Shown here in pieces: positions 845 to 14,391 of a stretch of 18,900 nucleotides of DNA (positions within the stretch are counted from its first letter, which is position 1; every line of letters starts with the position of its first letter). Source of the stretch: a virus. The notes beneath the pieces are model-generated. The model was not told the origin of the DNA. It saw nothing but the letters and a program-made list of their open reading frames with translations, and ran no database searches. The DNA is taken from UHGV virus genome UHGV-1695514; one strand, written 5' to 3'. The position numbers and the translations under genes are program-made.

Positions 845-2368
845 ATGGCGATGTATGAAGTCGGTACCGTCACGGGTGCCGCGTCGCAGGCACGGGTGAC
901 AGGTGCGACAACAAAATGGTCACAGGTGGCGCTGGGGATACTGCCCGGGTCGATTCTGGTGGTCTACCGCAGCGGTAGTGCTGACCTGTATGCGATCAAA
1001 TCCGTGGACAGCGACACGCAACTGACGCTGACCCGGAATATCACCACCGCATTTTCCGGTGCCAGTTACGGCATTATTACCGCTGAAACCGCCAGCACCT
1101 CGTCGTTTGCTAACCAGCTGGCCAGCGCGTTTGCATTCTGGCGTAGTGTAGTGGAGGGCTGGTCGATGGCCCTGACCGGCAGCGGCAATATTACCCTGAC
1201 TGACCCGATCACAGGAAAGCAGGTGACCGTGCCGGCGATAGCCGGGATGGCGAAAGCATCGGATCTTAACGCGCTGGCAAAACTCACCGGAGGAAACAAA
1301 CTCGACGGCTCGCAGGTTATAACCAGCGATAATGCCGGTTTTATTCTCGGTAAGAACTCAGATCTGGCTCTGCTCAAAAAACAGGGGCAAGGCGGGACAA
1401 TTGCCGTTGGCTCGGGAACACCGTTCAGGGTTCAGCGTTCAAGAGCGACCACTGTATCACCGGCAGACACCTTTGATGACATCCTCGTTATTGATGCCAA
1501 CAACCGAACGACACTACCTGGCGCGCTGACTGCCGGCGGCGACATCGACAACACGACGAAGGGGTTGCTGTATACCCAGGCGATTGAGCTGTCATTTAGC
1601 ACGCCATACATCGACTTTCATTTTAACTACAGCACCGACGACTTCACCGGGCGGATTATGGCCACTGCCGCCGATCAAATTAGTGTACAAGGTAGTCATT
1701 GGCGAGTTGACAGGGATCTTCGTGTTGGTGGTATGGCAGATATTGGAGGGTGGGCGCAATGCGGAGTCGACCTTTCGGCCAACAGAACAGACTTTGGTTC
1801 CCCTGCTGATGGTTCGTTGGTTTCAGGCGGACGTATTCGATCCAGAATGCTGGGACGCGGCGGTAACGGTGACACCTCCGGAGCGTGGGGTGGTTTCTAC
1901 CTTGAAGAATACGTTGGGTACAACCACCGGGTGGTACTGTATATGGACGGTTTTGACAGAAAAGATGCCTGGCTCTTTTACACCGGTGGGACAATCTCCA
2001 CCCCTAAAGGCGATGTTATGACCACTGGCTCAGACGTGCGGCTGAAAAAGGATTTTACGGAATCCCAGGAAGGGGCCTCCAGGCGTATTAACGCGCTGGG
2101 GGTATGTGAGTTCAACATGAAAGGCGAAACACGCCGTAGGCGTGGATTTATTGCTCAACAAGCTGAAAAAGTGGACCCGATTTACACTTTCCAAAGCGGT
2201 GATGTAGAAATTGATGGCGAGAAGATCAATATCCTTAACGTAGATCAGACAGCAATTGTCGCAGACCTGGTAACTACCGTTCAGGAGCAATGCAACTGTA
2301 TCGAAAAACTTAAAGAAGAGCTCAAAAATCTAAAGGATCTAGTGATGCAAACGCCAGAAACAGCATAA
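845..2368 (+). CDS. tail fibre protein with C-terminal intramolecular chaperone (peptidase S74-type) autoproteolytic domain
   Basis: ATG 845 preceded by GGAGGA (831-836). 507 aa, Gly/Thr/Ser-rich. Near the C-terminus, TGSDVRLKKDF (Ser codon at 2030-2032) fits the S-D-x-R-x-K self-cleavage signature of endosialidase/T5 L-shaped-fibre chaperone domains, followed by GFIAQQ and a coiled-coil-like tail. Confidence 0.75.
   Translation: MAMYEVGTVTGAASQARVTGATTKWSQVALGILPGSILVVYRSGSADLYAIKSVDSDTQLTLTRNITTAFSGASYGIITAETASTSSFANQLASAFAFWRSVVEGWSMALTGSGNITLTDPITGKQVTVPAIAGMAKASDLNALAKLTGGNKLDGSQVITSDNAGFILGKNSDLALLKKQGQGGTIAVGSGTPFRVQRSRATTVSPADTFDDILVIDANNRTTLPGALTAGGDIDNTTKGLLYTQAIELSFSTPYIDFHFNYSTDDFTGRIMATAADQISVQGSHWRVDRDLRVGGMADIGGWAQCGVDLSANRTDFGSPADGSLVSGGRIRSRMLGRGGNGDTSGAWGGFYLEEYVGYNHRVVLYMDGFDRKDAWLFYTGGTISTPKGDVMTTGSDVRLKKDFTESQEGASRRINALGVCEFNMKGETRRRRGFIAQQAEKVDPIYTFQSGDVEIDGEKINILNVDQTAIVADLVTTVQEQCNCIEKLKEELKNLKDLVMQTPETA
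2030..2368 (+). other. intramolecular chaperone / self-cleaving domain of the tail fibre (domain-level feature)
   Basis: Begins at the Ser of the SDVRLK motif (codon 396); cleavage immediately N-terminal to this Ser is expected by analogy with peptidase S74 domains. Confidence 0.55.
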
Positions 2369-2384
2369 AAGCAACTAATATTGT

Positions 2385-2402
2385 ATGTAAGTACTTACCT
2401 AC
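2385..2402. promoter_or_regulatory. intergenic motif with perfect palindrome GTAAGTACTTAC followed by CTAC; candidate operator/promoter element
   Basis: GTAAGTACTTAC at 2387-2398 is a perfect 12-bp palindrome. Sits about 60 bp upstream of the holin-like gene, with an AT-rich TATAAA-like stretch at 2423-2428. Related copies occur in at least six other intergenic regions. Confidence 0.45.
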
Positions 2403-2464
2403 AATTAGTTTCTAATTTATGATATAAATCTGCCATCCGATTTGACTTATTCATGGAGGAAGAC

Positions 2465-2788
2465 ATGTCAAACGAGATGGCAGGCGTGACGCCAGAGCAG
2501 GTGGAGCGCATTGCCGCAATTGTGGCGCGAGAAGTCGTAGGAAAATTAAGTAAGGAGCTTCGAGATGATATTGGCCAGGAGGTCAACGATCAGCTGCGAA
2601 CCTACTTTGGTGATATGACTCCGGCGCAACATAGCATTCAGCATTCCAACCTGGACAAACTTCTTAATCGGCTCGACACGATTTCAAGCGGGTTCTTTGG
2701 AGGCATTATTTCCAAGATTACCTCGTTCCTGATCACCGTGCTGCTTTTGGGTTTGGCCGCTTATGGCGTGAAAAATGGACTGCAATAA
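2465..2788 (+). CDS. putative holin / lysis membrane protein with a single C-terminal transmembrane segment
   Basis: GGAGG at 2455-2459 with ATG at 2465 (alternative in-frame ATG at 2453 has no RBS). Hydrophilic N-terminal part, then hydrophobic ISKITSFLITVLLLGLAAYGV near the C-terminus. First gene of a cluster ending in a spanin pair. Confidence 0.5.
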   Translation: MSNEMAGVTPEQVERIAAIVAREVVGKLSKELRDDIGQEVNDQLRTYFGDMTPAQHSIQHSNLDKLLNRLDTISSGFFGGIISKITSFLITVLLLGLAAYGVKNGLQ

Positions 2789-2801
2789 CAGGAGAACAAG
2801 G

Positions 2802-3494
2802 ATGAGTACTCCAAGAGGCATTCGTAACAATAACCCTGGTAACCTGGATAAGGGGTCGCCGTGGCAAGGGCTAGTAAACAATCCGGCGGAACCGCGGTTC
2901 TGCACTTTTAAAGACCCCGTATGGGGGATTCGAGCACTGACAGTAACGCTCATCACCTACCATGATAAGCGCCGCGCAAAAGACGGTTCCAGCATCGATA
3001 CGATCCGCGAAGTCATCGAGCGTTGGGCGCCGCCACATGAAAACAACACGGCCGCCTATATCAATGAGGTATCTAAAGCCGTAGGCGTGACGCCGGACAT
3101 GATCATCGATCTGCATGACTACAATACTATGCGGCCGCTGGTGGAGGCGATCATTCGTCATGAGAACGGTCGTGGCCCGTTGAAAACACTCAACAGCTGG
3201 TATTCGGCCGAAGTTATTGACGAAGGTATGCGTCGCGCCGGCGTCGTTAAACCGGTAACTGCAGTGAAAGCGGTACCCGTCACGAAAGAAACAGCCGGCG
3301 CAACGGTGACTGCAGGTATCGGTATTGCGCAGCTGGCGGACGTAATGCCGCAGATCTCCGTTGCGATGGATAAGGCCCAGGGACATATCACCAGCGGGGA
3401 TACCGTTCGCATTATCTTCGGTATTGCGACCATTGTTGTCGCCGGCTTTATTGCCTGGGCGCAGATTCGTAAGCATCAGGCAGGAGTGGTGTAA
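2802..3494 (+). CDS. putative endolysin / cell-wall hydrolase (by position in the lysis cassette), with predicted C-terminal membrane helix
   Basis: AGGAG at 2791-2795 with ATG at 2802 (the listed ORF start at 2775 lacks an RBS). N-terminal conserved-looking IRNNNPGNL motif that I cannot assign to a lysozyme family by eye. C-terminal hydrophobic stretch VRIIFGIATIVVAGFIAWAQI. Lies between the holin-like gene and the spanins. Confidence 0.4.
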   Translation: MSTPRGIRNNNPGNLDKGSPWQGLVNNPAEPRFCTFKDPVWGIRALTVTLITYHDKRRAKDGSSIDTIREVIERWAPPHENNTAAYINEVSKAVGVTPDMIIDLHDYNTMRPLVEAIIRHENGRGPLKTLNSWYSAEVIDEGMRRAGVVKPVTAVKAVPVTKETAGATVTAGIGIAQLADVMPQISVAMDKAQGHITSGDTVRIIFGIATIVVAGFIAWAQIRKHQAGVV

Positions 3495-3496
3495 CC

Positions 3497-3748
3497 ATGA
3501 ACGGCAGCCTGTTTTCAAAGGTCAAATCGACCATCATGACTTTGGCTGCCGTCTTCTTTGTGCTCGTTGGGGCGTACACCTGGGGTGGACGCGCTGCCCG
3601 GCGGGCCATGGAGGAAAAGGCGCAGAGAGAAACCAACAAACGGCTTCAAGGCACAGTGGATGTGAAAAATGAGACGATTAATGAAGTCAGGACTAAGGAT
3701 GCTTCTGCCGTTCATCGCGAGCTTCGCGATAAGTGGATGCGTGATTAA
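3497..3748 (+). CDS. i-spanin (Rz-like inner-membrane spanin subunit)
   Basis: 83 aa; N-terminal TM helix (IMTLAAVFFVLVGAYTW) followed by a charged, helical periplasmic domain. Its 3' end is overlapped in the +1 frame by a lipoprotein gene. Confidence 0.75.
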   Translation: MNGSLFSKVKSTIMTLAAVFFVLVGAYTWGGRAARRAMEEKAQRETNKRLQGTVDVKNETINEVRTKDASAVHRELRDKWMRD

Positions 3749-7533: not shown

Positions 7534-8259
7534 ATGAGCCAGATCTTTTTTGACACCATAAACAACGGCCAGTACGACTTCATGACAGAGTGGGACACGG
7601 TCGCCATGGACAAGTGGGTTGCGGAAAACATCGGTCTTTCACGATGCCAGGGGGAGGCTGAGCTCTTTGATACAAAGTGGTTTGACTATCGCGACATGCA
7701 CCCGCTGATGGCAACCTGTCTGTTCACCGAAGCCTATAAGCGCGCATACTCACAGATCATGCTGTCTCATGGCCGCGAGCATTTCGAGACGGCGCCATTC
7801 AGCACTGGTCTGAAACGCCTGCCTTACCAAGAGCTTTCGGCGGTGAACAAAACCTCTCTCTGGAAAGCTCGCCAGTTTGCAGATCGGTATTGCTGTTCTT
7901 ATGACTATTTTATATCAACTGTTCTCTCTGCAGCTGCACGCCGGCTCTGGGACAAATTACCTCGCCCTCAGCATCTTTGGCAGCCAGAACTGATTGAGAT
8001 CTTCGAAAGCAAACTCGCCAGTCGTGCGGGAACGCGTCTGGATGACTCTGTAGTGAGTTTTAAGCACTTAGGAGACATGCAGCATGACCCAATTCAGGAA
8101 CGTTACTTTGAATGGGTTCTGGAGCGTTTGAAGCACATCACCCGTGATAAGCGTATCCGCACCATCTTCTCTGCTGTCTGGTTGATGGAGCTGGTGCCTG
8201 AGCGCGTTATCTATGCCCATTACCCGGAAGAACTGGAAGAAGCACGGCGACTGTGTTGA
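7534..8259 (+). CDS. hypothetical protein (241 aa)
   Basis: Long ORF with uniform coding-like composition; no recognisable motif. Confidence 0.65.
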   Translation: MSQIFFDTINNGQYDFMTEWDTVAMDKWVAENIGLSRCQGEAELFDTKWFDYRDMHPLMATCLFTEAYKRAYSQIMLSHGREHFETAPFSTGLKRLPYQELSAVNKTSLWKARQFADRYCCSYDYFISTVLSAAARRLWDKLPRPQHLWQPELIEIFESKLASRAGTRLDDSVVSFKHLGDMQHDPIQERYFEWVLERLKHITRDKRIRTIFSAVWLMELVPERVIYAHYPEELEEARRLC

Positions 8260-12389: not shown

Positions 12390-12637
12390 TGGAGAAGCTG
12401 ATCGCGCTTAAACATAAGCTGGACGCCATTAAAGCAATGGGAACGAACGCCAAGAAAGAGGCGCTGGCCAGTATGAATGACTTCGAACAAAGAATGGTGT
12501 CACTCATGCTGAACCCATTTGTTCGTTTCGGGGTGAAGAAATACAAAGTGGCCGATCCACTTAGCAAGTCCGTACCCAGTGATCAGAAGGCGATAGAGCT
12601 GCTGGAGCAACTGATTGAAGCAGGAGAATACTCATGA
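12389..12637 (+). CDS. hypothetical protein (82 aa)
   Basis: ATG overlaps the upstream stop (TAATG); helical, charged composition. Confidence 0.55.
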   Translation: MEKLIALKHKLDAIKAMGTNAKKEALASMNDFEQRMVSLMLNPFVRFGVKKYKVADPLSKSVPSDQKAIELLEQLIEAGEYS

Positions 12638-12786
12638 TTCCATACATCATATTGACTTTTTCTGGAGGCGTCGCCCTTGGCTTCATCATCTGTCATGACT
12701 TGATCAAGCAGGAACTGAAGACCAAAACACTACGTATCGGTAAGCGGGTATATCGCGTCGTTCACGAGACAGGGGTATCAAAATGA
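12634..12786 (+). CDS. possible small membrane protein (50 aa), below the ORF-track length cut-off
   Basis: ATG 12634 overlaps the stop of the upstream gene (ATGA). Encodes MIPYIILTFSGGVALGFIICHDL... with one N-terminal TM helix. Its stop (12784-12786) overlaps the ATG of the next gene (12783). Confidence 0.35.
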   Translation: MIPYIILTFSGGVALGFIICHDLIKQELKTKTLRIGKRVYRVVHETGVSK

Positions 12787-13082
12787 GCAATCTAACCTCG
12801 TTTGACTGGTGGATAGGCTTGTACTTTGTGGCTTCTGGTGTCGCAGTAGCTTTTACGATTGGCCAGTCCCTGGTAAAGCTACTGCTTTTAAGATTCGCCA
12901 ATCGCAAGCGTATCGATGACACGCTTTGGTGCCTTGGATCTCTACTTGAACAGCGTTACGGCGAGCTGAAGGAAGGTGCAACCCTTTGCATAAAGGCAAA
13001 ACGTTTCACGGCCACAATCCAACGGACGCAGGATGAGAAGCCAGTACTGATCAAAAAAGGAGCAAGCGAACGCATGAAATAA
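12783..13082 (+). CDS. hypothetical small membrane protein (99 aa)
   Basis: N-terminal hydrophobic helix (WWIGLYFVASGVAVAFTIGQSLV), then a basic tail; last gene of the overlapping run. Confidence 0.55.
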   Translation: MSNLTSFDWWIGLYFVASGVAVAFTIGQSLVKLLLLRFANRKRIDDTLWCLGSLLEQRYGELKEGATLCIKAKRFTATIQRTQDEKPVLIKKGASERMK

Positions 13083-13108
13083 TAGGTAAGTGTTTACTTA
13101 TTAAGTTG
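13083..13108. promoter_or_regulatory. GGTAAGTGTTTACTTATTAAG motif (TAAGT-N4-ACTTA inverted half-sites)
   Basis: Same half-sites as the 2387 and 7386 palindromes; lies at the start of the long non-coding tRNA region. Confidence 0.35.
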
Positions 13109-13472
13109 ATATAAATATGATTGACTTGTTTTCGTTGAGACGCGACTGTTTGAACGTTTAAAGATAACTGCAAACGACAATCAGTATCTGGCAGTAGCCT
13201 AAAAAGCCAAACACCAGCGAGGTCAGTTTCCAGCCTCGTCACCGAAATGGGACACACTAAGCGAGTGTGATTGCAAAACGCAGGTAGGGCATCTGGTTAA
13301 CCAGTGCCCTTACCGATGAGGTAACAGAATGGGCGGTTGGGTTTTATGTCCAACACATCCCGGCTCCCAAAGGCCCGACCGTCTATCCTGTTACGTCATT
13401 TCTGTTACTTATGTCGTTTAGTTTTGGGTTAAAAATGGCGACGTAACCCGGCTGGTTAGGTGAGCCAGCACG

Positions 13473-13566
13473 CAACGTTGAGACCACTGGTTTTTGCATC
13501 ACAGAGGCAGAGCCGGCAGACATGTAGGGCCAAGTACATTAATCCGTCCCAGTGGTCTCAACGTTG
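13473..13566. repeat. 18-bp perfect inverted repeat enclosing a 58-nt loop (structured RNA or DNA hairpin)
   Basis: CAACGTTGAGACCACTGG (13473-13490) and its exact reverse complement CCAGTGGTCTCAACGTTG (13549-13566). Confidence 0.7.
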
Positions 13567-13809
13567 TGGTCACGGATTCATTATCCTTCTGGTTATAGCC
13601 ATTGTTGTCACTGCCCCGTGGCCACAACGATTAAATGATTCCATACATCTAATTAGATCTGAATGAAAACTCTCCTCAGCCCTCGGAGAGTATTTGAAGA
13701 TCTTGGCTTGTAAGCGTTTGGTGAACACGTAAAGCACAAGTGGCAGGAAACGGTAGGACTGCTGCGAACGACACCGGTGAATCGACAGCGGCTGACGGTG
13801 TCAACCTTA

Positions 13810-13884
13810 GATGGTGTAGCTCAGTGGTAGAGCGGTTGACTGTTAATCAGCTGGTCGGTGGTTCGAATCCCCCCACCATCGCCA
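13810..13884 (+). tRNA. tRNA-Asn (anticodon GTT)
   Basis: Manual cloverleaf: 7-bp acceptor GATGGTG/CACCATC, U8-A9, D-arm GCTC-AGTGGTA-GAGC, anticodon arm GTTGA-CTGTTAA-TCAGC (anticodon at 13842-13844), T-loop TTCGAAT, discriminator G and encoded CCA (13882-13884). One U-C mismatch in the T-stem. Confidence 0.7.
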
Positions 13885-13973
13885 CAACGGTAAGGGTATT
13901 TGGACGACAGCAAGGAAGGCGCGCTCTTTGGCTGTTCGCGACGGATCTGATTCCCTGAATGCCCTTACCGTTG
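13883..13973. repeat. 14-bp perfect inverted repeat enclosing a 63-nt loop, starting at the 3' end of tRNA-Asn
   Basis: ACCAACGGTAAGGG-type arm at 13883-13896 pairs with 13960-13973 (CCCTTACCGTTGTG); the loop contains further short complementary segments. Confidence 0.65.
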
Positions 13974-14041
13974 TGATGAATTGCAGCTCGTTGAAGCAAC
14001 CAGAAGATAAGCATCTGGCGTCACAACGAACGGAGGATAGA

Positions 14042-14128
14042 GGGCATGGCGCCCAAGCGGTCTTGAAAACCGTCCCATTGCGAAAGCGATGATGGTTCGA
14101 TTCCATTATCCTCCGCCAACACAGCGTT
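14042..14128 (+). tRNA. tRNA-Ser (anticodon TGA), class II with long variable arm
   Basis: 7-bp acceptor GGAGGAT/ATCCTCC, anticodon arm GCGGT-CTTGAAA-ACCGT (anticodon at 14074-14076), variable arm with GAAA loop, T-loop TTCGATT, discriminator G and encoded CCA (14126-14128); 87 nt. The D-arm is atypical in my hand fold. Confidence 0.65.
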
Positions 14129-14129
14129 G

Positions 14130-14210
14130 AGCGGTTTGGTTTTGTTTTTCTTATCGAAAAGACTCCGCCTGTCACCATGGCCAGACCGCTCAACGCTGTG
14201 ATAGACATTA
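14130..14210. repeat. 16-bp perfect inverted repeat enclosing a 49-nt loop, starting 2 nt after tRNA-Ser
   Basis: CACAGCGTTGAGCGGT (14130-14145) pairs with ACCGCTCAACGCTGTG (14195-14210). Confidence 0.7.
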
Positions 14211-14273
14211 CGGCAGACGTTCTTTAACCATAGCTTCTAGCATCTTAGCAACACTTTTTTCAGCGCAAAATCC

Positions 14274-14297
14274 AAAGGGGCTTCGGCCCCTTTTCTT
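14274..14297 (+). terminator. rho-independent terminator
   Basis: AAAGGGGC-TTCG-GCCCCTTTT hairpin with a following T-tract; closes the tRNA region. Confidence 0.7.
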
Positions 14298-14319
14298 GCA
14301 TAAACGCCCTTGTCGTTAT

Positions 14320-14335
14320 GTAACTACTTACTTAC
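14320..14335. promoter_or_regulatory. GTAACTACTTACTTAC, exact reverse complement of the 7504-7519 motif
   Basis: 16-nt exact inverted match to GTAAGTAAGTAGTTAC, located 56 bp upstream of the phoH start. Confidence 0.45.
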
Positions 14336-14391
14336 TTTTGTGTTAACTTTTAGGTATAGTTCGTCTGGTTACTCACTTGAAAGGACTCAAT

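What the first reader, a model, noticed from the sequence alone, without database searches (positions are those of the whole stretch)
13473..14210. Three long perfect inverted repeats (18, 14 and 16 bp stems, 49-63 nt loops) associated with the two tRNA genes
Perfect inverted repeats of this length are far beyond chance in 19 kb. Two start within 0-2 nt of a tRNA 3' end (13883 after tRNA-Asn, 14130 after tRNA-Ser) and the third lies upstream in the same non-coding region. Possible roles are RNase III-type processing hairpins, long-loop terminators, small structured RNAs, degenerate tRNA-like elements, or recombination sites. Two arms share the core CGTTGAG.
Basis: seen in the sequence. Interest (0 to 1): 0.6.

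Follow-up and report, generated by a model that had tools for sequence, protein, structure and literature searches.

The report
Conserved long RNA hairpins beside phage tRNAs
The three inverted repeats are real and conserved RNA hairpins inside a 1.2-kb non-coding tRNA operon of an SSU5-like phage-plasmid, belonging to uncatalogued RNA module families also found in P1 and lambdoid phages, and they most likely act as RNA-processing or refolding punctuation, though this is untested.

Summary
The window holds three perfect inverted repeats of 18, 14 and 16 bp, all in 13473-14200; shuffles give a mean of 0.01. With G·U pairs the stems reach 20-25 bp.

All lie on the + strand of one non-coding unit, from a promoter-like site near 13093 to a terminator near 14290. 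The unit also carries tRNA-Asn and tRNA-Ser.

The stems are kept by compensatory changes across SSU5-like and P1-like phage-plasmids. Non-Watson-Crick pairs are almost all G·U on the sense strand, so selection acts on the RNA.

- H4 abuts a tRNA 3' end in 83 of 90 copies.
- H3 abuts tRNA CCA ends, or follows the tR' terminator in lambdoid late leaders.
- H3b also occurs alone in N-gene leaders.
- The 3' strand CGUUGUG of H1 and H3 doubles as the 5' strand of H2 and H3b.

No Rfam family matches any of them.

My best reading (confidence about 0.4) is double-strand-specific processing, RNase III type, coupled to refolding. Nothing here shows cleavage.

Upstream lies a conserved 340-nt RNA with a start-less 10-codon tmRNA-tag-like frame, ANDNQYLAVA*.

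The parts
13093..13121 (+). Promoter-like site (TTTACT, 17 nt, TATGAT) heading the non-coding unit
   Evidence: The hexamers are conserved in relatives in the alignment. Function is inferred.
13128..13470 (+). Highly conserved 5' structured RNA domain. It contains a start-less 10-codon tmRNA-tag-like frame at 13170-13202 (GCA AAC GAC AAT CAG TAT CTG GCA GTA GCC TAA = ANDNQYLAVA*).
   Evidence: conservation and covarying hairpins; no start codon; 27 variants, mostly synonymous or conservative changes; Rfam tmRNA local hit at 13159-13213, model positions 82-140, 14.5 bits, E = 5.7e-4 in that small search; ARAGORN finds no tmRNA.
13316..13400 (+). H0: long hairpin (21-25 bp with G·U pairs) with a variable apical loop, inside the 5' domain
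13471..13568 (+). H1: 20-bp stem (18 bp perfect) with a 58-nt interior that includes a conserved small hairpin (AUGUA-GGGCCAAG-UACAU)
   Evidence: 19 pairs, 4 with compensatory double changes, 17 G·U cells against 2 A·C cells over 16 distinct sequences.
13562..13629 (+). H2: 14-bp stem CGUUGUGGUCACGG/CCGUGGCCACAACG. Its first 7 nt are the last 7 nt of H1.
   Evidence: It is conserved in Cyrano and SSU5, with non-Watson-Crick pairs that are G·U on the + strand.
13810..13884 (+). tRNA-Asn (GUU), CCA encoded
   Evidence: 67.2 bits.
13883..13975 (+). H3: 21-bp stem (14 bp perfect), CACAACGGUAAGGGUAUUUGG / CUGAAUGCCCUUACCGUUGUG, starting inside the CCA of tRNA-Asn. It belongs to a widespread family with a hypervariable interior.
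   Evidence: 36 of 53 tRNA-proximal copies abut a tRNA 3' end. G·U 24 against A·C 0, and 65 against 4, at positions not fixed by the search pattern.
13966..14029 (+). H3b: three-way junction. It has an outer stem CGUUGUGAUG/CGUCACAACG, a small hairpin UUGC..GCAA, and a hairpin CCAGA-AGAUAAGCA-UCUGG. It shares CGUUGUG with H3.
   Evidence: 12 pairs, 6 with compensatory double changes over 28 distinct sequences; it folds only when the H3 5' arm is absent.
14032..14118 (+). tRNA-Ser (UGA), CCA encoded
14120..14200 (+). H4: 20-25-bp stem (16 bp perfect) that always follows the last tRNA of the array. The interior carries a near-invariant AAGACUCCGC (11 of the 12 aligned sequences).
   Evidence: 83 of 90 copies abut a tRNA 3' end (Ser 51, Asn 31, His 1); 20 pairs, 2 compensatory.
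14274..14297 (+). Intrinsic terminator (AAAGGGGC-UUCG-GCCCCUUUUCUU) ending the non-coding unit
   Evidence: Read from the sequence and conserved in Cyrano. The simple scan did not flag it.

Best explanation
The repeats are sense-strand RNA helices. They belong to reusable RNA modules that punctuate a roughly 1.2-kb untranslated phage transcript: 5' structured RNA, H1/H2, tRNA-Asn, H3/H3b, tRNA-Ser, H4, terminator.

Shown here:
- The helices are conserved, covary, and are selected on the tRNA-sense strand.
- They start at or within 2 nt of tRNA CCA ends.
- The last 7 nt of H1 and H3 (CGUUGUG) are also the first 7 nt of the next conserved structure, H2 or H3b, which ends in a second CACAACG. Each pair of modules is therefore a three-strand switch.

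Inferred:
- The stems of about 20-22 bp are substrates of a double-strand-specific endonuclease, host RNase III. This would resemble the RNase III stems of lambda N-leader RNA, T7 early RNA and rRNA operons.
- Cutting the long stem, or opening its lowest 7 bp, separates the tRNA from what follows and exposes its 3' trailer for trimming.
- It also frees CGUUGUG to close the next module, H3b or H2.
- In lambdoid phages, H3b sits 20-40 nt upstream of the N start codon.
For: - Reality and non-randomness.
- One non-coding unit with a promoter-like site and a terminator.
- Compensatory changes. H1: GAGACC/GGUCUC, GAGGCC/GGCCUC, GAAGCC/GGCUUC, GAGAUC/GAUCUC, GAGAAC/GUUCUC. H4: GUUGAGCGG/CCGCUCAAC against GCUGAACGG/CCGUUCAGC. 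H3: GGGUA/UACCC against GAGCA/UGCUC. H3b: six covarying pairs.
- Strand asymmetry, G·U against A·C: 17:2, 12:1, 24:0 and 65:4.
- Stem length is held at 19-25 bp in four unrelated sequence families.
- Adjacency to tRNA 3' ends.
- H3b occupies the position between nutL and the N start in Stx and P22-like phages, where lambda has its known RNase III site (the lambda site is from established knowledge).
- H3 lies directly after tR' in late leaders.
- Where H3 precedes it, the H3b 5' strand always begins GUUGUG. In N leaders without H3 the same stem is free to vary: GGUGAUGUG, GAUGCGAUG, AUGGCGCG.
- Thermodynamic prediction: the covariation-supported H3b fold (-21.2 kcal/mol) appears only when the H3 5' arm is removed.
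Against: - No cleavage or transcript-end data exist for any copy. The Y. pestis pMT1 small RNAs I could trace do not map here.
- RNase III needs no specific sequence, yet the stem sequences are strongly conserved across distant phages (CACAAC(A)GGUAAGRGCAUU; CACAGCGYUGARCGGUUUGG). This hints at a sequence-specific partner.
- H1 and H4 interiors carry conserved motifs (AUGUUGGG..AACAU; AAGACUCCGC) that a mere processing stalk would not need.
- E. coli tRNA maturation does not normally use RNase III.
- H3b outer stems are only 7-10 bp in most copies.
Confidence: 0.4

Rival explanations
1. The hairpins are stand-alone stable small RNAs of about 80-120 nt. A conserved long-stem scaffold presents a variable or motif-bearing apical part that acts in trans, as a decoy, sponge or antisense seed. 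They would be released from the tRNA precursor like 3' external transcribed spacer RNAs, or like the stable RNAs C and D of the T4 tRNA cluster.
For: H4 has a near-invariant interior AAGACUCCGC and H1 a conserved inner hairpin. H3 keeps its stem sequence while the interior is replaced by at least 9 unrelated sequences, which is the pattern of a scaffold with a payload. They are co-transcribed with tRNAs. There is a precedent of an 80-nt hairpin precursor RNA in a lambdoid phage, 24B_1.
Against: No target or partner was identified. No terminator or Hfq-type 3' end is present. The hypervariable H3 interior could equally mean it is unconstrained. The shared CGUUGUG strand ties each hairpin to its neighbour rather than marking an independent gene.
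Confidence: 0.25
2. The hairpins are tRNA-mimicking punctuation cut by RNase P or other tRNA-processing enzymes. The long helix imitates the stacked acceptor and T stems, so cleavage at its 5' base directly creates the upstream tRNA 3' end, as the next tRNA does in tight arrays.
For: The stems start 0-2 nt after CCA. In Cyrano and P1 the same position is occupied by the next tRNA, 2 nt after the previous one. Some H3 variants carry a T-arm. H3b has tRNA-like proportions: a 7-10-bp stem, a 4-bp arm and a 5-bp arm.
Against: There is no RCCA after the 3' strand. The T-arm is absent from most variants, including this window. The tRNA covariance model and ARAGORN do not score them. H3 copies in late leaders have no tRNA nearby.
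Confidence: 0.1
3. The repeats are DNA-level elements: palindromic, MITE-like or linker sequences that mediate module shuffling or inversion between phages. RNA folding would be a by-product.
For: The modules occur in different orders and contexts in SSU5-like, P1, D6, Sasha and lambdoid phages. H3+H3b and H1+H2 are each bounded by direct CACAAC repeats, and Cyrano, which lacks H3+H3b, keeps a single ACACAA at that junction. One contig has the H1 interior inverted between its arms. They lie in the 'moron' insertion zone downstream of PR'.
Against: There is strong sense-strand G·U against A·C asymmetry, which DNA-level selection does not predict. Compensatory changes maintain pairing. No target-site duplications and no associated transposase were seen.
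Confidence: 0.1
4. The hairpins are transcription-level devices in untranslated RNA. Long helices would block Rho loading or pause or terminate unmodified RNA polymerase, so that only antiterminated polymerase reads through.
For: All contexts are long untranslated stretches: a non-coding RNA and tRNA operon, N leaders, and late leaders right after tR'. A boxA-like CGTTCTTTAACCA follows H4 at 14218-14230.
Against: No U-tracts follow the stems, and the consensus scan found no terminator-like site. Blocking Rho needs neither a fixed stem length nor conserved sequence. This reading does not explain the adjacency to CCA or the shared strand.
Confidence: 0.1

Closest known systems
RNase III processing stems in phage and rRNA precursors (lambda N-leader site, T7 early-RNA sites, the stalks flanking 16S/23S rRNA and spacer tRNAs); from established knowledge
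   Same: Long-range helices of about two turns in untranslated polycistronic RNA. H3b sits between nutL and the N start codon, where lambda has its RNase III site. tRNAs lie next to the stems.
   Different: No cleavage has been shown. The stems here are near-perfect and sequence-conserved. They directly abut CCA ends. They share a strand with the next structure. Lambda itself has no copy among the hits.
3' external transcribed spacer RNAs of tRNA operons (3'ETS-leuZ of E. coli); from memory
   Same: A structured RNA encoded immediately 3' of the last tRNA of an operon and made from the same precursor, like H4.
   Different: 3'ETS-leuZ is a short Hfq-dependent sponge ending in the operon terminator. 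H4 is a 20-25-bp hairpin followed by about 75 nt and a separate terminator. No target is known.
Stable RNAs C and D (species 1 and 2) of the phage T4 tRNA gene cluster; from memory
   Same: Structured RNAs of unknown function, co-transcribed and co-processed with phage tRNAs.
   Different: No sequence relationship was tested. The T4 RNAs are not long perfect hairpins.
Transcribed palindromic repeat elements (Neisseria Correia elements, enterobacterial ERIC/IRU); from memory
   Same: Imperfect palindromes of about 100 bp, in many copies, in transcribed intergenic DNA. Correia hairpins are cut by RNase III.
   Different: These are phage-borne, have no target-site duplication, and show strand-specific RNA-level selection. 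The interior is replaced rather than conserved.
24B_1 precursor of Stx phage Phi24B (PMC10732415, PMC4426718)
   Same: An 80-nt long-hairpin RNA in a lambdoid phage that is processed to a smaller RNA.
   Different: It is at a different locus (lom region).
tmRNA (ssrA), for the RNA domain just upstream of H1
   Same: A start-less 10-codon frame AN(D/E)xxYLAVA* or ANDDLMMVAA*, similar in length and pattern to E. coli ANDENYALAA. Rfam tmRNA models hit exactly the tag segment.
   Different: ARAGORN finds no tRNA-like domain, no G3·U70 acceptor stem and no terminal CCA. Only about 42 nt precede the resume codon. Scores are far below the gathering thresholds.

Membership tests
E. coli-type RNase III substrate | About two turns (roughly 20 bp or more) of mostly Watson-Crick double-stranded RNA | tested here: met
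   The stems are 19-25 bp in H0, H1, H3 and H4 in the window and in relatives. H2 (14 bp) and H3b (7-10 bp) are shorter.
E. coli-type RNase III substrate | No antideterminant base pairs in the proximal and distal boxes | not tested
   I had no reliable rule set at hand.
E. coli-type RNase III substrate | Staggered cleavage that depends on rnc | not testable with these tools
   This needs end mapping in rnc+ and rnc- hosts, or an in vitro assay.
Intrinsic terminator | A short G+C-rich hairpin followed directly by a U-tract | tested here: not met
   The sequences after the stems are GGUCACGG, AUGAAUUG and AUAGACAU. The scan found none. A separate canonical terminator lies at 14274-14297.
tRNA or pseudo-tRNA | A cloverleaf scored by ARAGORN or the Rfam tRNA model | tested here: not met
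   Only the Asn and Ser genes are called. In P1 only Asn and Thr are called, although its H3 holds GGGTTCGAATCCC.
Known self-cleaving ribozymes found next to phage tRNAs (HDV-like, hammerhead, twister, pistol, hatchet) | A match to the family covariance model or core motifs | tested here: not met
   No Rfam hit up to E = 10 on 13000-14450, and none up to E = 5 on a lambdoid late leader. A 20-bp pairing of the 5' and 3' ends does not fit the HDV double pseudoknot; that point is inference. Theta ribozymes may not be in Rfam.
Bacterial Y RNA (YrlA) | A match to RF02553, and a Ro60/Rsr partner gene | tested here: not met
   The only hits are weak ones over the true tRNAs: 18.6 and 25.6 bits against a gathering score of 69. 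None of the 20 ORFs scanned in the window has a TROVE/Ro60 domain.
MITE-like palindromic repeat (Correia or ERIC type) | Terminal inverted repeats, target-site duplication, and many dispersed copies | tested here: inconclusive
   There are many copies in many phages. No target-site duplication was seen. The strand-asymmetric G·U pattern argues for RNA selection. One inversion was found.
tmRNA (upstream domain 13128-13470) | A tag reading frame that begins with an Ala resume codon, has no start codon, and ends in hydrophobic or Ala residues and a stop | tested here: met
   RF00023 gives a local hit at model positions 82-140. RF04321 scores 24.1 bits in P1.
tmRNA (upstream domain 13128-13470) | A tRNA-like domain: acceptor stem with G3·U70, T-arm and 3' CCA | tested here: not met
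   ARAGORN finds no tmRNA, standard or permuted. No full-length Rfam tmRNA match was found. I saw none by eye.

The most novel reading that the evidence does not exclude
The whole 13093-14297 unit may be a phage 'translation kit' carried by SSU5-like and P1-like phage-plasmids, including Y. pestis pMT1. It would combine a tmRNA-like messenger RNA that lacks its own tRNA-like domain (tag AN(D/E)xxYLAVA) with tRNAs and switchable long-stem modules. The modules' processing would release or activate the parts. The long hairpins, some with T-arms, could supply or regulate the missing partner, or act as SmpB or nuclease decoys. This would be a new way for a phage to tap or blunt host ribosome rescue. 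It would also mean that classic P1 carries unrecognised RNA genes under the annotated 'plp' ORF.
Probability: 0.15. Interest if true: 0.85.

Novelty: new variant of a known kind. Interest (0 to 1): 0.6.

Why it matters
These modules sit in some of the most studied phages (P1, P22-like, Stx phages) and in clinically common Klebsiella, Salmonella and Yersinia phage-plasmids. Yet they are unannotated or overlaid by doubtful ORFs, such as P1 plp and Cyrano gp40.

If they are processing and refolding switches, they would explain three things: how phage tRNAs in untranslated operons get their 3' ends, how N-leader and late-leader RNAs are matured, and why the modules travel together.

They also give well-covarying RNA families (H1, H3, H4, H3b) ready for curation. 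Finally, they point to an adjacent tmRNA-tag-like RNA that an exhaustive 2014 ssrA survey of phages and plasmids did not report.

Tried and rejected
- Rfam at gathering and permissive thresholds on the window, a lambdoid late leader and P1. Only tRNAs, a group II intron and chance microRNA-precursor hits turned up; no ribozyme or small-RNA family.
- YrlA/Ro60. Rejected.
- AgvB/AsxR anti-sRNAs and the GcvB target motif CACAACA. These are different RNAs, upstream PR'-region small RNAs ending in terminators. Here CACAAC is buried in stems. Kept only as a remote idea.
- Literature searches for tmRNA in phage-plasmids, P1 transcriptomes, and RNase III with phage tRNAs. Nothing described these elements.
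- Y. pestis pMT1 small RNAs sR082 and sR083. They do not map to this locus.
- E. coli K-12 DLP12, checked in the hope of using published RNase III maps. It lacks the elements. Qin and Rac were not checked.
- A long-range helix between the tag 3' end and 13454-13468, proposed by RNAalifold. The local hairpin GCUGG/CCAGC has the true compensatory change in L012, so the long-range version is doubtful.
- Pairing of the transcript 5' end CGUUGAGAC with the H1 3' arm. One supporting covariation (L012), but mismatches in SSU5 and Cyrano. Unresolved.
- Nucleotide similarity to E. coli ssrA beyond the tag.

Full report
**What the window is.** The 1.3-kb gap between + strand genes at 13083-14376 is 99.8% identical to Klebsiella phage vB_KpnS_p4727. 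It is 73-95% identical to other SSU5-like phage-plasmids, and parts of it match P1, P7 and D6. The neighbouring genes encode a ParA-like ATPase, a DnaB-like helicase and a primase upstream. PhoH, a gp49/66-family protein, a glutaredoxin and a YafO toxin lie downstream. ARAGORN finds tRNA-Asn at 13810-13884 and tRNA-Ser at 14032-14118.

**Check of the observation.** The three perfect inverted repeats exist: 18 bp at 13473-13490/13549-13566, 14 bp at 13883-13896/13962-13975, and 16 bp at 14120-14135/14185-14200. They are the only perfect inverted repeats of 14 bp or more, with loops up to 120 nt, in the whole window. In 200 dinucleotide-preserving shuffles the mean was 0.01. With G·U pairs the stems are 20, 21 and 20-25 bp, and the folding z-scores are -6.2, -5.8 and -9.0. 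The third repeat starts at 14120, not 14130.

**The transcription unit.** A promoter-like site lies at 13093-13121 and is conserved in relatives. A canonical terminator lies at 14274-14297. None of the long stems is followed by a U-tract. ORFs drawn across the region, such as 13843-14208 on the minus strand, overlap tRNA genes and the conserved RNA helices. The same holds for Cyrano gp40 and P1 plp. These ORFs are probably not genes.

**Conservation.** The region has homologues in 774 plasmid records from Klebsiella, Escherichia, Enterobacter, Yersinia (pMT1), Salmonella, Citrobacter and Cronobacter. I mapped hairpins in 17 fetched loci and in several hundred IMG/VR loci found by pattern scans.
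- H1: 16 distinct sequences give 19 pairs. Four pairs show compensatory double changes. There are 17 G·U cells against 2 A·C cells.
- H4: 12 sequences give 20 pairs, 2 of them compensatory, with G·U 12 against C·A 1. The interior carries AAGACUCCGC in 11 of the 12 sequences.
- H3: I oriented 51 distinct copies independently of pairing, by the strand of nearby tRNAs or an upstream T-run. At positions not fixed by the search pattern, G·U outnumbers A·C by 24 to 0 and by 65 to 4.

G·U on one strand is A·C on the other, so selection acts on RNA transcribed in the tRNA direction.

**Anatomy and context.**
- H4 follows the last tRNA of the array in 83 of 90 copies (Ser 51, Asn 31, His 1).
- H3 abuts a tRNA CCA end in 36 of the 53 copies that have tRNAs nearby. 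Another 78 copies have no tRNA within 500 nt.
- In one E. coli lambdoid prophage I examined, H3 lies directly after the tR' terminator, between Q and the holin gene. This is the 'moron' zone described by Tree et al..
- The H3 stem sequence CACAAC(A)GGUAAGRGCAUU is conserved, but its interior is replaced by at least nine unrelated sequences. Some contain a tRNA T-arm, for example P1 GGGTTCGAATCCC.
- In Cyrano, P1 and E. marmotae plasmids the arrays read Asn-Thr-Ser, Asn-Thr-H3 or Asn-Tyr-Thr-H3...Ser. The modules are therefore shuffled.

**H3b.** The 'spacer' after H3 is itself a conserved motif. It has an outer stem, a 3-4-bp hairpin with a CNNNGA loop, and a CCAG...CUGG hairpin with loop AGAUMAGC. 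The junction bases GAAUUGCAG and AACC are conserved. Twenty-eight distinct sequences give 12 pairs, six with compensatory double changes. It also occurs alone, 20-40 nt upstream of the start codons of N-like antiterminator genes in Stx and P22-like phages, downstream of nutL. No Rfam family matches any of these elements.

**The shared strand.** CGUUGUG at 13562-13568 ends H1 and begins H2. CGUUGUG at 13969-13975 ends H3 and begins H3b. H2 and H3b each end in another CACAACG. Five of the six CACAACG sites in the window lie here. Where H3 precedes H3b, the H3b 5' strand always starts GUUGUG. In N leaders without H3 the same stem varies freely. That is what a dual pairing constraint predicts. Folding predicts that in the precursor H3 wins and the covariation-supported H3b fold is absent. 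Once the H3 5' arm is removed, H3b forms at -21.2 kcal/mol. H1 and H2 partition the shared strand.

**Mechanism.** What is shown is a set of conserved sense-strand helices of about two turns, placed at tRNA 3' ends and in untranslated leaders, and linked in pairs by a mutually exclusive strand. From this I infer double-strand-specific processing by RNase III coupled to refolding. The cut, or opening of the lowest 7 bp, would separate the tRNA, expose its trailer and let the next module fold. The analogy with the lambda N-leader RNase III site supports this, but it rests on position only.

Against this reading:
- There are no end-mapping data.
- The stem sequences are conserved more than RNase III would require.
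- H1 and H4 have conserved interiors.

I put this mechanism at about 0.4. The rivals are stand-alone scaffold RNAs (0.25), RNase P-type tRNA-mimic punctuation (0.1), DNA-level mobile or linker palindromes (0.1) and anti-Rho or pause devices (0.1). One contig (L184) has the H1 interior inverted between its arms. DNA recombination at the arms therefore does happen.

**The upstream RNA.** The 340 nt from 13128 to 13470 are almost invariant across genera, with covarying hairpins. They contain GCA AAC GAC AAT CAG TAT CTG GCA GTA GCC TAA, which reads ANDNQYLAVA*. P1 has ANDDLMMVAA*.
- The frame has no start codon, and indels immediately upstream break it.
- Among 27 variants the changes are largely synonymous (TAT/TAC, CTG/CTA, GCA/GCT, GCC/GCT/GCA, ACG/ACA) or conservative.
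- The Rfam tmRNA model aligns locally to exactly this segment: RF00023 positions 82-140, 14.5 bits, E = 5.7e-4 in a 391-nt search.
- The permuted-tmRNA model scores 24.1 bits in P1.
- No tRNA-like domain is found.
- A 2014 exhaustive ssrA survey reported none in phages or plasmids other than mycobacteriophages and Bacillus phage G.

I therefore do not call it a tmRNA. I flag it as a tmRNA-tag-like RNA.

**Verdict.** It is a set of uncatalogued, widely shared phage RNA modules. Their function is unproven. I class it as a new variant of a known kind, structured processing elements of untranslated phage RNAs, with interest 0.6.

Noticed in passing
window 13128-13470 (tag frame 13170-13202); P1 locus L004 1098-1130: A highly conserved structured RNA holds a start-less 10-codon frame, ANDNQYLAVA* (P1: ANDDLMMVAA*), resembling the tmRNA tag. 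Variants differ mostly by synonymous or conservative changes. Rfam tmRNA models give weak local hits on exactly this segment. No tRNA-like domain was found.
   Followed up: partly
window 17721-17946 (+): There is a strong Rfam match to group II intron domains D1-D4 (RF02005, 186.6 bits), next to ORF 17951-18553, which has no Pfam hit. A perfect 12-bp hairpin lies just upstream at 17587-17617.
   Followed up: no
window 12634, 13635, 17587 (+) and 17606 (-): The 12-mer ATGATTCCATAC occurs four times against 0.07 expected. One copy is at the start of ORF 12634-12786, one is in the conserved spacer after H2, and two form the palindrome at 17587-17617. It may be a protein-binding site.
   Followed up: partly
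L184 (IMGVR_UViG_2823367306_000002) 7637-7749: The interior of H1 is inverted between its arms compared with close relatives, while both flanks keep their orientation. This could be an arm-mediated DNA inversion or an assembly artefact.
   Followed up: partly
L004 (phage P1) 1625-2002 minus strand; window 13843-14208 minus strand; L001 2392-2604 minus strand: The annotated or possible ORFs (P1 plp 'putative lipoprotein', Cyrano gp40, a 121-aa ORF here) lie antisense over tRNA genes and covarying RNA hairpins. They are probably annotation artefacts.
   Followed up: partly
window 14218-14230: CGTTCTTTAACCA after H4 resembles the boxA antitermination motif (rrn TGCTCTTTAACAA). Cyrano has a one-base-shorter version.
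   Followed up: no
window 13089-13100 and 14323-14334: A shared TTTACTTA / ACTTACTTAC motif overlaps the -35 regions of the non-coding RNA promoter and of the PhoH promoter region. It is conserved in relatives as TATTTACTTACTTATC, and may be a phage-specific promoter or operator element.
   Followed up: no
L002 (pJN2-26) 2733-3647; L016 (K. pneumoniae AR_0152) about 2060-3570: Some relatives carry about 1-kb insertions of minus-strand genes inside this non-coding unit. These are after H4 in pJN2-26, and within or next to tRNA-Asn in L016. L016 also has an in-frame TAG in the tag-like frame and a deleted H1.
   Followed up: no
window 14160-14170 (H4 interior): The conserved H4 motif GACUCCGCC repeats the 3' acceptor strand of the adjacent tRNA-Ser (CUCCGCC) and is complementary to its 5' end CGGAG. 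The CUCCGC part is also kept in copies that follow tRNA-Asn.
   Followed up: no
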